From UHGV virus genome UHGV-0018629: a stretch of 64,000 nt of DNA; one strand, given 5' to 3'. The notes under the pieces are model-generated. The model was not told the origin of the DNA. It was given only the letters and a program-made list of their open reading frames with translations, and searched no databases. This document shows, piece by piece, positions 55,309 through 57,869 of the stretch. The DNA is from a virus. A program made the position numbers and the translations under genes. Each line of letters begins with the position of its first letter. The stretch's first letter is position 1.

Positions 55309-55890
55309 TCATTTATATACTGATTCCGTAAGGGTTGTTACTTCATCTATTTTATACCAATGGGTTTCAACCATTTCACGCTTGCTTATATCATCAAGAA
55401 AACTTGCATCTAATTGAACCGTTGAATTAACACGATGCCTTTTAACGATGCGAGAAACAACTACTTCATCTGCATAAGGTAATGCAGCATATAACAAAGC
55501 AGGCCCGCCAATTACACTTACATTAGAATTCTGGTCAAGAATAGTCTTGAATGGCGAACCAGAAATTGATACTTGAATTTCGTCGCCAGAAATGTAATCT
55601 ATATATTGCTCCCAAGTAATATAGAAATGTGCTAAATCACCGTCTTTAGTTTCAGGATAATCACGCTCAAGGTCACACACTACAATATGTCTACGACCAG
55701 GAAGTAATGTAGGCAATGACTGGAACGTTTTAGCACCCATAATCACAATTGTGCCATCAGTACGAGCTTTAAAATTCTGGAGGTCCTTTTTAACTCGTCC
55801 CCATGGAAGTCCATCACCTAAACCAAATGCTAATTCGTCAAAGCCTTCAACTGTTTTAGTTGGAGAATAGGCAAATACCAATTTAATCAT
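55309..55890 (-). CDS. frd: Dihydrofolate reductase
   Basis: 193 aa, same size as T4 Frd. Confidence 0.93.
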
Positions 55891-56135
55891 TACGCAAAGC
55901 CCCTTTCAATAAACCATTCAGTGGCTTTATTAGCATCAAAGAATAATTCTTCATATGTCTTTTCTTTGTTTTCAAAGACTGTCACACAAACACGTTGACA
56001 TTCTCCACAGTATTCTTCTGACATACTCAAAGCGTCAGAAAACATTTCATTAAACTCATTTAAATCAGGATTATGCAATGCGTTAAAAATTGCATAATCG
56101 AATTCGTCATTCATAAATTCAAAAACAAAAATCAT
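55890..56135 (-). CDS. Hypothetical small acidic protein (frd.x)
   Basis: ORF 55890..56147; likely ATGA-coupled start near 56135; Asp/Glu-rich. Confidence 0.5.
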
Positions 56136-56491
56136 ATTATCTCCCATTGAAAAGGGTCATGAGCATATCCGCTAGCGTCAATCATTTTAACTAAAGTTAC
56201 CATTCCTCTGTTAACTGCTTGCGCGATTTCATCAAAAACTTCGTCACTATCATCGTAAAGGTCATTAAAAAGTTCTAATACGTTCTTCTGAACTTTTAAT
56301 TTACGGCCGGCAATTTCGCCTACAGTAAATTCGTTTCCGCCAAATCCAGCGTAAAATGTAATTACACCCATTAACTGGCTTTCACGGGAATCTATATCGT
56401 GTGATAAATTAATAAAAGCCGTCCCAGGCGCGGTTTTAAGTTGGCAACGAATTTTTACTTGGGTAATTCCAGTTATATGAATGTTAGACAT
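56132..56491 (-). CDS. Hypothetical protein (frd.x)
   Basis: 119 aa ORF. Confidence 0.55.
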   Translation of the reverse strand: MSNIHITGITQVKIRCQLKTAPGTAFINLSHDIDSRESQLMGVITFYAGFGGNEFTVGEIAGRKLKVQKNVLELFNDLYDDSDEVFDEIAQAVNRGMVTLVKMIDASGYAHDPFQWEII

Positions 56492-56501
56492 AATATTTTC
56501 C

Positions 56502-56801
56502 TCAGACAGACTTTTTCACAATTTTCCAATCAGCTTTAAACTGCTCGACGTCAGAATGGTAAATCCAAAATCCTGCACTTTCTCCATCCTCATAAAGAGG
56601 ACATCCATCACATTCATCTTCCCATCCCATATCACGTAAAAGATGTTCAGCTTTTTCAACAAGTTCAGAATCTTTACCGATGATATTAAAATACCATTTA
56701 CCTCTAACTTCTGAATCTTTGATGCTCTGACGTTGTAATCTCATTTTATTCTCCTTAGTTGATAAGGCTATAGTATCACTACCATAGCCTGTTGTAAACA
56801 A
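56502..56801 (-). CDS. Hypothetical protein (frd.x)
   Basis: 99 aa ORF, possible internal start at MRLQRQS. Confidence 0.5.
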   Translation of the reverse strand: MFTTGYGSDTIALSTKENKMRLQRQSIKDSEVRGKWYFNIIGKDSELVEKAEHLLRDMGWEDECDGCPLYEDGESAGFWIYHSDVEQFKADWKIVKKSV

Positions 56802-57104
56802 TTATTTTTGAATTTTATCGAGCCACTTACCAAGCTTAATCATTTCTTTAGTAGCCTTTTCCATACTTCTGAACTTAACCAATAGAGGATAGGTATCGAC
56901 ACCCATAACTAAACTGGTTACAAGACTGTGTTCACCCACAAGCCATAACGAATACGTTTGAATATCGAGCCCGTAATTTCTGTCTTTATGGACCCGTACA
57001 CCCATCACTTCAAATTTCTCACTAGCTTTTTCTACCGCATCCAGGAAATCATCTTTAGTCATATTAGGCCTTAAATGTTTTTCGCAAAAGTTCAATGATT
57101 TCAT
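56802..57104 (-). CDS. Hypothetical protein (frd.x)
   Basis: 100 aa ORF, possible internal start at MTKDDFLD. Confidence 0.5.
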   Translation of the reverse strand: MKSLNFCEKHLRPNMTKDDFLDAVEKASEKFEVMGVRVHKDRNYGLDIQTYSLWLVGEHSLVTSLVMGVDTYPLLVKFRSMEKATKEMIKLGKWLDKIQK

Positions 57105-57450
57105 CTACATTGTTTTCGTCAACAATGCAGTGAATTTTTGTCACGCCAGAAACTGTACCTTCATTAGCGGATTGAGGCTTTTCTAAAGTTACCTCAGTAA
57201 AGTATTTGAATTCTTCAGAGTAAATCTCAAAATACGTCTCAAGTGGGCCACCCGCCATGCATTCAGTGCCATCTTCCATAGTTACACGTACCACACATTC
57301 ACCAGCACAATCATCACTTTCCATTTCATCTACAACAAAACTAGGTCCGTGCTTCTCTATTAAATTTAGCATCATTACATTGCAACGGCACTCGTTAGCA
57401 AAGTCATTTTTAAATAAAGGGTTAATGATATAAGTTTTTCCAACTTCCAT
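57064..57450 (-). CDS. Hypothetical acidic protein (frd.x)
   Basis: 128 aa ORF. Confidence 0.55.
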   Translation of the reverse strand: MEVGKTYIINPLFKNDFANECRCNVMMLNLIEKHGPSFVVDEMESDDCAGECVVRVTMEDGTECMAGGPLETYFEIYSEEFKYFTEVTLEKPQSANEGTVSGVTKIHCIVDENNVDEIIELLRKTFKA

Positions 57451-57470
57451 TTTGATTTCCTCATTTTAAC

Positions 57471-57487
57471 GGGGCTGTAATAGCCCC
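57471..57487 (-). terminator. Stem-loop GGGGCT-GTAAT-AGCCCC
   Basis: Hairpin read in sequence. Confidence 0.45.
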
Positions 57488-57495
57488 CTTGATAA

Positions 57496-57726
57496 TTATT
57501 GTTCAATCAGTCCCATGTAAAATTCTGCGTCTTCAGAATCCATGCCATCGCAATATTCATTAGCCATAAAACGGGTGAGGTCTTCAAGAGGACCTTCAAT
57601 GACAATAGAAAAATTGCAATAATTAGGGTCATCGTGAATACTTGTGATACTAAGTTCAGGATAACGATTACGAATAATTTCTTCAATATATTCAAAATCA
57701 ACGATGTCAATATCAACTTTAGCCAT
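57496..57726 (-). CDS. Hypothetical small acidic protein (frd.3-like)
   Basis: ORF 57496..57849; likely start MAKVDIDIV (57726) with AAGAGGAAA Shine-Dalgarno, 76 aa. Confidence 0.5.
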
Positions 57727-57828
57727 ATTATTTTCCTCTTTAATCATCAGCAGTATTGCCGATAGTTGTATAGTACCACAGTTTTTATAGTATGTAAACC
57801 GTTTTGTGAAAAATTTTTGAAATAAAAA

Positions 57829-57847
57829 GGGGACCTCTAAGGTCCCC
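57829..57847 (-). terminator. Stem-loop GGGGACC-TCTAA-GGTCCCC downstream of gene 32
   Basis: Perfect 7-bp GC-rich stem. Confidence 0.55.
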
Positions 57848-57869
57848 AATTAATTAGTAATATAATCTA

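What the first reader, a model, noticed from the sequence alone, without database searches (positions are those of the whole stretch)
55890..57849. Enlarged cluster of six small, mostly acidic ORFs between frd and gene 32
Six consecutive minus-strand ORFs (about 76-128 aa), several strongly Asp/Glu-rich, with ATGA-type coupling and an internal hairpin, fill the frd to 32 interval. T4 has only three ORFs here (frd.1 to frd.3) as I recall. Small acidic early proteins are a common form for host-takeover or anti-restriction factors such as DNA mimics. This interval appears to be a hyperplastic accessory locus.
Basis: partly seen in the sequence, partly recalled or inferred. Interest (0 to 1): 0.45.

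Follow-up and report, generated by a model that had tools for sequence, protein, structure and literature searches.

The report
Variable early-gene cluster between 32 and frd
The six small genes between the DNA-binding-protein gene 32 and the dihydrofolate reductase gene are real, but this is an already described, recombination-shuffled block of dispensable early phage genes; phage T4 looks smaller here only because its lineage deleted some of them.

Summary
Six consecutive minus-strand genes (76, 128, 86, 80, 119 and 81 aa) fill the gene 32 to frd interval of a T4-like (Tequatrovirus) phage, where T4 has three. All six are under purifying selection. All six exact proteins are already in public databases as 'hypothetical protein'.

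They are Frd.3 (PF05798), Frd.2 (PF03197), a phrog_4423 protein, Frd.1 (DUF5417), a DUF7247 protein and a phrog_3183 protein.

The interval is a classic T4-type hyperplastic region. In 29 T4-like loci it holds 1 to 10 ORFs from 22 families. It carries two early promoters with associated stem-loops (published 'PeSL' cassettes).

The cluster is not enlarged; T4 is reduced. T4's 71-bp frd.1-frd spacer is a deletion scar that keeps the first 16 codons of ORF E joined to the last bases of ORF F. That scar occurs in only 17 records (T4 strains, RB55, RB59). ORF F is in about 88% of Tequatrovirus records, and the full six-gene layout in about 18%.

The DNA-mimic idea has no positive support. Frd.3 is acidic in every relative and folds confidently, but it resembles no solved structure. 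Frd.2 is published as an LSm-like, possibly RNA-binding protein. ORF C is not acidic, and ORF E's acidity is not conserved. Interest is low.

The parts
57829..57847 (-). Gene 32 intrinsic terminator (8-bp GC-rich stem followed by a T-run). It also serves as the stem-loop of the first PeSL-type cassette.
   Evidence: The only terminator-like site in 55200..58000. Folding energy -15.2 kcal/mol.
57770..57798 (-). Early promoter 1: TTTACA-N17-TACTAT with a TG extended -10. It drives A, B and C.
   Evidence: Matches the PST/T4 PeSL promoter consensus TTTACW-N17-TAYWAT (PMC4122927). T4 frd.3 mRNA is an abundant NAD-capped early transcript (bioRxiv 10.1101/2024.04.04.588121).
57496..57726 (-). ORF A = Frd.3, 76 aa, pI 4.05, net charge -15.
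   Evidence: PF05798 at E 6e-38. Found in 732 phage records and 25 of 29 T4-like loci, with pI 4.05-4.52 in all. dN/dS 0-0.48. AF2 pLDDT 92.3, fold beta-alpha-beta-beta-alpha-alpha.
57468..57490 (-). Intergenic GGGGC...GCCCC hairpin between A and B, with no promoter (a 'half PeSL'; possibly an attenuator or mRNA stabiliser).
   Evidence: Folding energy -12.6 kcal/mol, z -2.5. Present with variant loops and stems in T4, RB51, UFV09 and L004-L007.
57064..57450 (-). ORF B = Frd.2, 128 aa, pI 4.38. This is the non-T4 allele: its N-terminal ~100 aa are swapped and its last ~28 aa are shared with T4.
   Evidence: PF03197 at E 9e-34. 43% identical to T4 Frd.2. DNA homology breaks at 57435 and resumes at 57153. 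Published as an LSm-like N-terminal domain; the amber mutant is viable (PMC12152347). The only 'Fit' gene of unknown function in the T4 CRISPRi-ART screen (PMC11879866).
56802..57062 (-). ORF C, 86 aa, pI 7.95, phrog_4423. Absent from T4.
   Evidence: Found in 349 phage records, including Phapecoctavirus and Klebsiella Webervirus. Only 13 clusters at 50% identity among 1.84 billion representatives; the 10 near-full-length matches are 83-98 aa. Flanked by an imperfect short direct repeat; genomes without C carry the hybrid junction.
56765..56798 (-). PeSL cassette 2: early promoter TTTACA-N17-TACTAT (56798..56770), with an 11-bp hairpin (56790..56765) that spans the spacer, the -10 hexamer and the first transcribed bases. 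It drives D, E, F and frd.
   Evidence: -15.6 kcal/mol, z -4.15. The same geometry, with different stem sequences, is found upstream of frd.1 in 17 sequence-distinct T4-like loci. Stem-loops overlapping the -10 box are a described PeSL subclass (PMC2839356).
56502..56744 (-). ORF D = Frd.1, 80 aa, pI 4.94. Its Shine-Dalgarno sequence contains GGAG.
   Evidence: DUF5417 at E 1e-33. 100% identical to T4 Frd.1. Invariant motif W..CDxCP..G...GF.I. dN/dS 0-0.17.
56132..56491 (-). ORF E, 119 aa, pI 4.86, DUF7247. Absent from T4 except for a 16-codon relic.
   Evidence: PF23905 at E 9e-35. Found in 427 phage records in several allele classes and in 14 of 29 loci. dN/dS 0.12-0.59. T4 relic shown.
55890..56135 (-). 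ORF F, 81 aa, pI 4.05, phrog_3183. Overlaps E as ATGA and frd as TAATG. Absent from T4.
   Evidence: Found in 452 phage records, 436 at 90% identity or more, including T2. Distant relatives occupy the same slot in L021 and L023 (hhalign 88%). dN/dS 0-0.03 against full-length relatives (0.38 over the 30 codons shared with RB51). AF2 model unusable (pLDDT 53).

Best explanation
This is the gene 32 to frd hyperplastic region of a Tequatrovirus (T-even) phage.

**Organisation.** It holds six real, independently shuffled, dispensable early genes in two transcription units.
- Unit 1 starts at an early promoter just after the gene 32 terminator. It expresses Frd.3, then (past a conserved hairpin) Frd.2 and ORF C.
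- Unit 2 starts at a second early promoter embedded in a hairpin (a PeSL cassette). It expresses Frd.1, ORF E and ORF F, and reads on into frd and td. E, F and frd are translationally coupled.

**How gene content changes.** The mechanisms are inferred from junction sequences.
- Homologous recombination between co-infecting relatives, in the conserved flanks (32, frd, the promoter cassettes and conserved gene ends).
- Deletion or insertion at short direct repeats.

The result is a population-wide mosaic in which the six-gene state is one common haplotype and T4's three-gene state is a derived deletion.

**What the proteins do.** This part is inference. They are accessory early proteins that adjust host or phage processes. 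Frd.2 is most plausibly RNA-directed (LSm-like fold, published prediction). Frd.3 is a compact, invariably acidic alpha/beta protein whose function probably depends on its charge. No target is known for any of the six.
For: **Identity and synteny.** The order rnh-dsbA-33-59-32-[six ORFs]-frd-td matches T4 and 660 phage records.

**Coding status.** All six ORFs have dN/dS below 0.6. All fall in Pfam or PHROG families. All six exact sequences are already public.

**Plasticity.**
- 22 ORF families and 1-10 ORFs in this slot across 29 loci.
- Mosaic haplotypes among close relatives: T4 has A-B'-D; L004 has A-B'-D-E'-F; L005 has A'-B'-C-D; RB51 has A-B-C-D-E plus a replaced F; UFV09 matches the window.

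**Polarity of change.**
- T4's frd.1-frd spacer keeps E's ribosome-binding site, ATG and 16 codons, fused to F's last bases.
- That scar is confined to 17 records: T4 strains, RB55 and RB59.
- F is in 436, E in 243 and C in about 164 of roughly 497 Tequatrovirus-level records.

**Junctions.** C is flanked by an imperfect repeat (AAAAC(A/T)TTTAA / AAAATTCAAAA). Genomes without C carry the hybrid AAAACTTTCAAAAA directly abutting the -35 of promoter 2.

**Regulatory elements.**
- Two TTTACA-N17-TACTAT promoters and one terminator.
- Stable hairpins.
- The frd.1 promoter hairpin is kept in 17 sequence-distinct loci with different stem sequences.
- The element type is described in PMC2839356 and PMC4122927.
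- No MotA-type middle promoter in the cluster.

**Early expression and dispensability of the T4 homologues.**
- frd.2 served as an RT-qPCR control 5 min after infection (PMC6070864).
- frd.3 mRNA is an abundant NAD-capped transcript.
- The frd.2 amber mutant plates normally (PMC12152347).
Against: - Promoter, terminator and attenuator activities are inferred from consensus matches and folding only.
- Several recombination breakpoints lie inside genes (57435, 57153, 56434, 56045). PeSL-mediated exchange therefore cannot be the only route.
- The direction of the C event (insertion or deletion) is not resolved.
- frd.2 scored as a fitness gene in a T4 CRISPRi-ART screen (PMC11879866), which fits poorly with 'dispensable'.
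- No biochemical function is shown for any of the six proteins, so the functional part of the statement is weak.
Confidence: 0.8

Rival explanations
1. The acidic members (Frd.3, Frd.2, F, possibly D and E) are nucleic-acid mimics or other anti-restriction or anti-defence inhibitors. They would bind host DNA-binding defence proteins early in infection, as Ocr, ArdA and Arn do.
For: - Net charges are -15 (A), -14 (B) and -13 (F), with pI 4.05-4.38.
- Frd.3 acidity is conserved in all 25 loci (pI 4.05-4.52), although individual acidic positions are not. This is what a charge-based function would predict.
- The genes are expressed from early promoters.
- They sit in an accessory region whose content varies between phages with different hosts.
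Against: - No match to any anti-restriction family in Pfam, and nothing in PHROGs, PADLOC or NCBIfam.
- The confident Frd.3 model has no PDB match below E 0.07, and its top 50 hits are generic alpha/beta domains.
- Frd.2 is predicted to be LSm/SH3-like, which suggests RNA binding (PMC12152347).
- C is not acidic, and E's acidity is not conserved (pI up to 9.2).
- 38% of all small ORFs in this window have pI below 5.
Confidence: 0.12
2. The cluster encodes post-transcriptional regulators that tune expression of the flanking replication and nucleotide genes (32, frd, td). Frd.2 would act as an Hfq-like RNA binder, with the conserved hairpins as its RNA targets.
For: - Frd.2 is predicted to carry an LSm-like fold in a family with GoF, whose D25Y mutant stabilises gene 41 mRNA (PMC12152347).
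- Hairpins are conserved between A and B and at the frd.1 promoter.
- Unit 2 reads into frd and td, with no terminator in between.
- frd.2 was the only 'Fit' gene of unknown function in T4 CRISPRi-ART.
Against: - In that paper, wild-type GoF and MotB.1 had no effect on the reporter, and Frd.2's effect is not reported there.
- My profile comparison of the Frd.2 family with GoF and MotB.1 was not significant (probability 0.5% and 7.6%).
- The hairpins fit the published PeSL attenuator and recombination roles.
- The other five proteins show nothing that links them to RNA.
Confidence: 0.12
3. The six-gene state arose by recent insertions into a T4-like three-gene ancestor, so the cluster really is enlarged.
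For: - C occurs in unrelated phage groups (Phapecoctavirus, Webervirus), as expected of a horizontally acquired cassette.
- The C junction at a short repeat can be read in either direction.
Against: - T4 retains E's translation start and 16 codons, fused to F's end.
- That junction is restricted to the T4 lineage (17 records).
- F is near-universal in the genus.
- E and F-like genes occupy the same positions in other genera.
Confidence: 0.05
4. Some of the six ORFs are non-coding and are only annotation artefacts of an AT-rich spacer.
For: All are short and none has a known function. C shows too few substitutions among Tequatroviruses for a meaningful dN/dS.
Against: - dN/dS is below 1 for every ORF.
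- Full-length homologues exist at 28-60% identity in other genera and families.
- Each ORF has a Shine-Dalgarno sequence or a coupled start.
- The ORFs are tightly packed, leaving no unexplained gaps.
Confidence: 0.03

Closest known systems
T4-type hyperplastic regions with PeSL (promoter-early stem-loop) cassettes (Arbiol et al. 2010, PMC2839356; Comeau et al. 2014, PMC4122927)
   Same: - A block of small, dispensable early ORFs between conserved core genes.
- Gene content differs between very close relatives.
- Sigma-70-type early promoters (TTTACW-N17-TAYWAT) are combined with stem-loops, including one that overlaps the -10 box.
- An indel junction abuts a cassette.
   Different: - Several breakpoints here are intragenic rather than in the cassettes.
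- One stem-loop (between A and B) has no promoter.
- Mini-circle formation and promoter or terminator activity were not tested for this locus.
Phage T4 frd.1, frd.2 and frd.3 genes (NC_000866, 145762..146802)
   Same: - ORFs D, B and A are the orthologues. D is 100% identical, A 86-87% and B 43% (shared C-terminus).
- Same order, and the same promoter and hairpins.
   Different: - T4 lacks C.
- T4 has only a 16-codon relic of E and the last bases of F.
- T4 carries a different Frd.2 N-terminal allele.
- T4 has an extra 22-codon hydrophobic micro-ORF in the frd.1 leader.
GoF / MotB.1 / Frd.2 LSm-like protein family (Kim et al. 2025, PMC12152347)
   Same: ORF B is a Pfam FRD2 member with the conserved family positions (GK.Y, N..M...I...G..F.V, YFE, EF..F.E).
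   Different: - The window carries a divergent allele of the N-terminal (LSm-like) domain.
- The link to GoF and MotB.1 could not be reproduced by sequence profiles here.
- No RNA binding has been shown for Frd.2.
DNA-mimic anti-restriction proteins (T7 Ocr, ArdA, T4 Arn)
   Same: Small, early-expressed proteins with strongly negative charge (A, B, F).
   Different: No sequence or fold similarity was detected. No evidence of binding to a DNA-binding protein. These mimics share no common fold, so a lack of similarity is not decisive.

Membership tests
T4-type hyperplastic region with PeSL cassettes | Lies between conserved core genes, and its gene content varies among close relatives | tested here: met
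   The 32-to-frd gap is 189-3085 bp and holds 22 ORF families in 29 loci. Tequatrovirus haplotypes differ in C, E, F and in alleles of A, B and E.
T4-type hyperplastic region with PeSL cassettes | Early promoter matching TTTACW-N17-TAYWAT, with an AT-rich upstream region and a downstream Shine-Dalgarno sequence and ATG | tested here: met
   Two sites reading TTTACA-N17-TACTAT at 57798..57770 and 56798..56770. The sequence context is shown.
T4-type hyperplastic region with PeSL cassettes | Stable stem-loop adjacent to or overlapping the promoter | tested here: met
   A stem at 57847..57829 lies upstream of promoter 1. A stem at 56790..56765 overlaps the -10 of promoter 2 (z -4.15). The latter is conserved with changed stem sequences in 17 loci.
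T4-type hyperplastic region with PeSL cassettes | Insertions, deletions and replacements have their junctions at the cassettes | tested here: inconclusive
   The C junction abuts the -35 of promoter 2. Other breakpoints lie inside B, E and F.
T4-type hyperplastic region with PeSL cassettes | Demonstrated promoter and terminator activity, and mini-circle formation | not testable with these tools
   Needs reporter fusions and inverse PCR on infected cells.
Pfam Phage_FRD3, FRD2, DUF5417 and DUF7247 | HMM score above the curated gathering threshold | tested here: met
   A scores 129.6 bits (cutoff 28.1), B 116.6 (29), D 115.6 (23.9) and E 120 (27). C and F match only PHROGs.
LSm-like GoF/MotB.1/Frd.2 family | Detectable relationship of the N-terminal domain to GoF and MotB.1 | tested here: inconclusive
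   hhalign of the Frd.2 family against GoF gave probability 0.5%, and against MotB.1 7.6%. Both alignments are collinear over 80 columns and score above the controls (E-value 0.12 and 0.0046, against 0.47-0.84 for six control families versus GoF).
LSm-like GoF/MotB.1/Frd.2 family | Five-stranded bent antiparallel beta-sheet (LSm/SH3-like) N-terminal domain | not tested
   Taken from published AlphaFold3 models of T4 Frd.2 (PMC12152347).
DNA-mimic anti-restriction proteins | High negative charge density | tested here: met
   A has net charge -15 in 76 aa, B -14 in 128 aa and F -13 in 81 aa. C is +1. The window background is 38% of small ORFs with pI below 5.
DNA-mimic anti-restriction proteins | Sequence or fold similarity to a known mimic (Ocr, ArdA, Arn, Ugi and others) | tested here: not met
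   No Pfam hit to such families. The Frd.3 model (pLDDT 92) has no PDB match below E 0.07. The F model is too poor to test.
DNA-mimic anti-restriction proteins | Binds and inhibits a DNA-binding enzyme | not testable with these tools
   Needs pull-downs and restriction or defence plating assays.

The most novel reading that the evidence does not exclude
One or more of these proteins is a charge-based (nucleic-acid-mimicking) inhibitor of a host defence or nucleic-acid-binding protein. The candidates are the invariably acidic Frd.3, and the genes missing from the model phage T4: F (carried by about 9 in 10 Tequatroviruses), E and C. T4's lineage-specific loss of E and F would then contribute to differences among T-even phages in sensitivity to bacterial defences. 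Decades of T4 genetics would have missed this because T4 lacks these genes.
Probability: 0.15. Interest if true: 0.55.

Novelty: already known. Interest (0 to 1): 0.15.

Why it matters
The finding matters little on its own. The locus type, its regulatory cassettes and every one of the six proteins are already in the literature or databases.

There are two modest take-aways.
- T4, the reference phage, is a reduced outlier at this locus, with a recognisable deletion scar. Comparing other phages with T4 makes normal relatives look 'enlarged'.
- Genes such as F (about 88% of the genus) and E (about half) have never been open to T4 genetics.

If any of these small early proteins proved to be a defence inhibitor, the natural presence/absence mosaic documented here would be a ready-made comparison panel.

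Tried and rejected
- **Fusion-profile search.** I joined seeds of families A, F, C and E with rare linkers (alignment A1) to retrieve four families in one homologue search.
- **Homologue search for F.** It found only near-identical sequences. The resulting AF2 model had pLDDT 53, so I ran no fold search on it.
- **PDB sequence searches.** Single-sequence searches for all six ORFs and profile searches for E, D and C gave nothing. The one exception is a short ankyrin-repeat-like match in the conserved C-terminus of B (E 1e-5, residues 85-122), which I did not pursue.
- **Family libraries.** PADLOC and NCBIfam gave no meaningful hits.
- **Paralogy among the six ORFs.** Rejected: phmmer and BLASTP found nothing significant. 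Profile-profile comparison linked only F to family u8 and A to family u5, both from other phages.
- **Frd.2 family against T4 GoF and MotB.1 by hhalign.** Not significant.
- **RNAalifold on the frd.1 promoter hairpins.** I used per-sequence folding instead.
- **Was the promoter-embedded hairpin new?** I briefly thought so. Arbiol et al. 2010 already describe stem-loops overlapping the -10 box as a common PeSL subclass.
- **Other scans.** MotA-box middle promoters: none in the cluster. Rfam: no hit.
- **Literature searches.** Searches for DUF5417, DUF7247 and anti-defence work on these genes found nothing relevant.
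Full report
**What is there**

The window comes from a T4-like (Tequatrovirus) phage. On the minus strand the gene order is rnh, dsbA, 33, 59, 32, six small ORFs, frd, one extra ORF, td. The 2.1-kb interval matches 660 phage records. The best match is 95.9% identical over the full length (vB_EcoM-UFV09), and 89 records cover at least 80% of it.

Reading the sequence and recomputing starts gives six genes:

| ORF | Coordinates | Length | pI |
|---|---|---|---|
| A | 57496..57726 | 76 aa | 4.05 |
| B | 57064..57450 | 128 aa | 4.38 |
| C | 56802..57062 | 86 aa | 7.95 |
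| D | 56502..56744 | 80 aa | 4.94 |
| E | 56132..56491 | 119 aa | 4.86 |
| F | 55890..56135 | 81 aa | 4.05 |

- The coupling is as described: E/F overlap as ATGA, F/frd as TAATG, and B/C join as TAATATG.
- The 'internal hairpin' lies between A and B.

**Are they genes?**

Yes.
- Against relatives, every ORF has dN/dS below 0.6, and most are 0.35 or less. This is comparable to frd (0.19-0.29).
- A is Pfam Phage_FRD3, B is FRD2, D is DUF5417 and E is DUF7247. C and F match PHROGs 4423 and 3183.
- tblastn against 50,697 phage records finds A in 732, C in 349, E in 427 and F in 452.
- All six exact protein sequences are already public and are labelled hypothetical.

**Comparison with T4**

These correspond to A, B and D. 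But T4 is the odd one out.
- Its 71-bp frd.1-frd spacer aligns with the window's E ribosome-binding site, ATG and first 16 codons (MYVIEIIQVSIRFQLK against MSNIHITGITQVKIRCQLK). It is then joined directly to the last bases of F. This is a deletion scar.
- The junction occurs at full length in only 17 records: T4 strains, RB55 and RB59.
- I used gp32 DNA at 95% identity or more as the genus denominator (497 records). On that basis F is present in about 88%, E in about 49%, C in about 33% and the complete six-gene layout in about 18%.
- B is a second allele of frd.2. DNA homology with T4 stops 16 nt into the gene and resumes for the last 83 nt, so the N-terminal ~100 residues are swapped (43% identity overall).
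- C is flanked by an imperfect short repeat, and genomes without C carry the hybrid junction right against the next promoter. The direction of that event is open.

**The locus across T4-like phages**

In 29 loci retrieved through gp32, the 32-to-frd gap ranges from 189 to 3085 bp. It holds 1 to 10 ORFs drawn from 22 families.
- Frd.3 (25 loci), Frd.1 (21), Frd.2 (17) and E (14) keep the same relative order, with variable inserts between them.
- Profile comparison links F to a family in the same slot in two other genera (88%). It also links Frd.3 to a paralogue family (72%).
- Close relatives show every kind of mosaic.

**Regulatory anatomy**

The region has one terminator, directly after gene 32. 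It also has two promoters of identical type, TTTACA-N17-TACTAT with TG, at 57798..57770 and 56798..56770. No MotA-box middle promoter is present and there is no Rfam match.

The second promoter is embedded in an 11-bp hairpin that covers the spacer, the -10 hexamer and the first transcribed bases (-15.6 kcal/mol, z -4.15). The same geometry is found upstream of frd.1 in 17 sequence-distinct T4-like loci, with quite different stem sequences.

I first took this for something new. Arbiol et al. 2010 describe exactly such promoter-early stem-loop (PeSL) cassettes, with stems 'most commonly between -35 and -10 or overlapping the -10 box'. They also give evidence that the cassettes act as promoters and attenuators and as recombination sites that shuffle ORFs in hyperplastic regions (PMC2839356; PMC4122927).

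The GGGGC/GCCCC hairpin between A and B is conserved within the genus. It looks like a cassette remnant or an attenuator.

**Function**

Little can be shown.
- Published work predicts an LSm/SH3-like N-terminal barrel for T4 Frd.2, in a family with GoF and MotB.1, and finds the amber mutant viable (PMC12152347).
- A CRISPRi-ART screen scored frd.2 as the only fitness gene of unknown function in T4 (PMC11879866).
- frd.3 mRNA is an abundant NAD-capped early transcript.
- My profile test of Frd.2 against GoF and MotB.1 was not significant.
- Frd.3 folded with high confidence (pLDDT 92.3; beta-alpha-beta-beta-alpha-alpha). It matched nothing in the PDB (best E 0.077) and only uncharacterised phage orthologues in BFVD.
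- F could not be modelled (pLDDT 53).
- C forms a very small family of stand-alone proteins, mostly 83-98 aa (13 clusters among 1.84 billion representatives). It sits in arrays of small early genes in Phapecoctavirus and Webervirus phages.
- Frd.1 has an invariant W..CDxCP..G...GF.I motif.
- Sequence and profile searches of the PDB found no relatives.

**The DNA-mimic idea**

- Acidity is real for A, B and F, moderate for D and E, and absent for C.
- 38% of small ORFs in this window have pI below 5, so the enrichment is weak.
- Only Frd.3 keeps a very low pI in every genus (4.05-4.52), while its individual acidic positions vary. That pattern is compatible with a charge-based function.
- There is no similarity to any known mimic. 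DNA mimics share no common fold, so the negative result is not decisive.
- I give this reading about 0.12.

**Verdict**

The 'hyperplastic accessory locus' reading is correct but already published as a concept. 'Enlarged' should be replaced by 'T4 is reduced'. The functional speculation is unsupported. Nothing here is new in kind.

Noticed in passing
window 54941..55300 (minus strand): An extra ORF of about 115 aa (phrog_1928, pI about 8.5-8.8) sits between frd and td. In T4 those two genes overlap. RB51 annotates the homologue as 'flanked by 9 bp repeat'. dN/dS is 0.05-0.08, so it is a real gene and a second insertion or deletion polymorphism next to the cluster.
   Followed up: partly
window 54067..54927 and 58779..58877: td is uninterrupted here: there is no group I intron and no I-TevI. 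There is also no segG homing-endonuclease gene between genes 32 and 59, only a 99-bp gap. T4 carries both mobile elements.
   Followed up: no
L001 (T4 NC_000866), between the frd.1 promoter and frd.1, about 146005..146142 in T4 coordinates: T4 and other genomes that lack C (L004, L006) have a 139-nt gap between frd.2 and frd.1. In T4 this leader contains an unannotated 22-codon hydrophobic micro-ORF with its own Shine-Dalgarno sequence (MFAPYIMAAVMLVCLYLLIKAC); the L004 and L006 sequences were not read. It is absent from the window and from other genomes that carry C.
   Followed up: partly
window about 45106 and 41111 (minus strand): Two other early-promoter-like sites in the window have the same promoter-embedded inverted repeat around the -10 hexamer (-14.9 and -12.3 kcal/mol). 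The median for 25 promoter-like sites is -6.1. They are probably further PeSL cassettes.
   Followed up: partly
window 57064..57198 (ORF B residues 85-122): The conserved C-terminal part of Frd.2, shared between the two alleles, gives a short match to a single ankyrin repeat in the PDB (1n11, E 1.1e-5). No matched stretch passed the threshold on its own.
   Followed up: no
public database entries for ORF A and ORF F (also P0046, H151, H163): Some records fuse Frd.3 to gp32 or label it 'single-stranded DNA-binding protein'. The 90% clusters chain Frd.3 with gp32, F with dihydrofolate reductase, and Frd.1 with Frd.2. These are annotation and clustering artefacts that could mislead automatic annotation.
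   Followed up: partly
window 56045..55891 compared with L002 (RB51): In RB51, homology breaks after about codon 30 of F. A different 113-aa ORF (RB51ncORF236c) continues up to frd. This is a replacement inside the gene rather than a whole-gene swap.
   Followed up: partly
window 57798 and 56798: The two early promoters start exactly 1000 bp apart. Each has TTTACA-N17-TACTAT and a TG before the -10 hexamer; the spacers differ. Recombination between them would excise A-B-C as a 1.0-kb circle, as in the published mini-circle model. The round number itself is probably coincidence.
   Followed up: no
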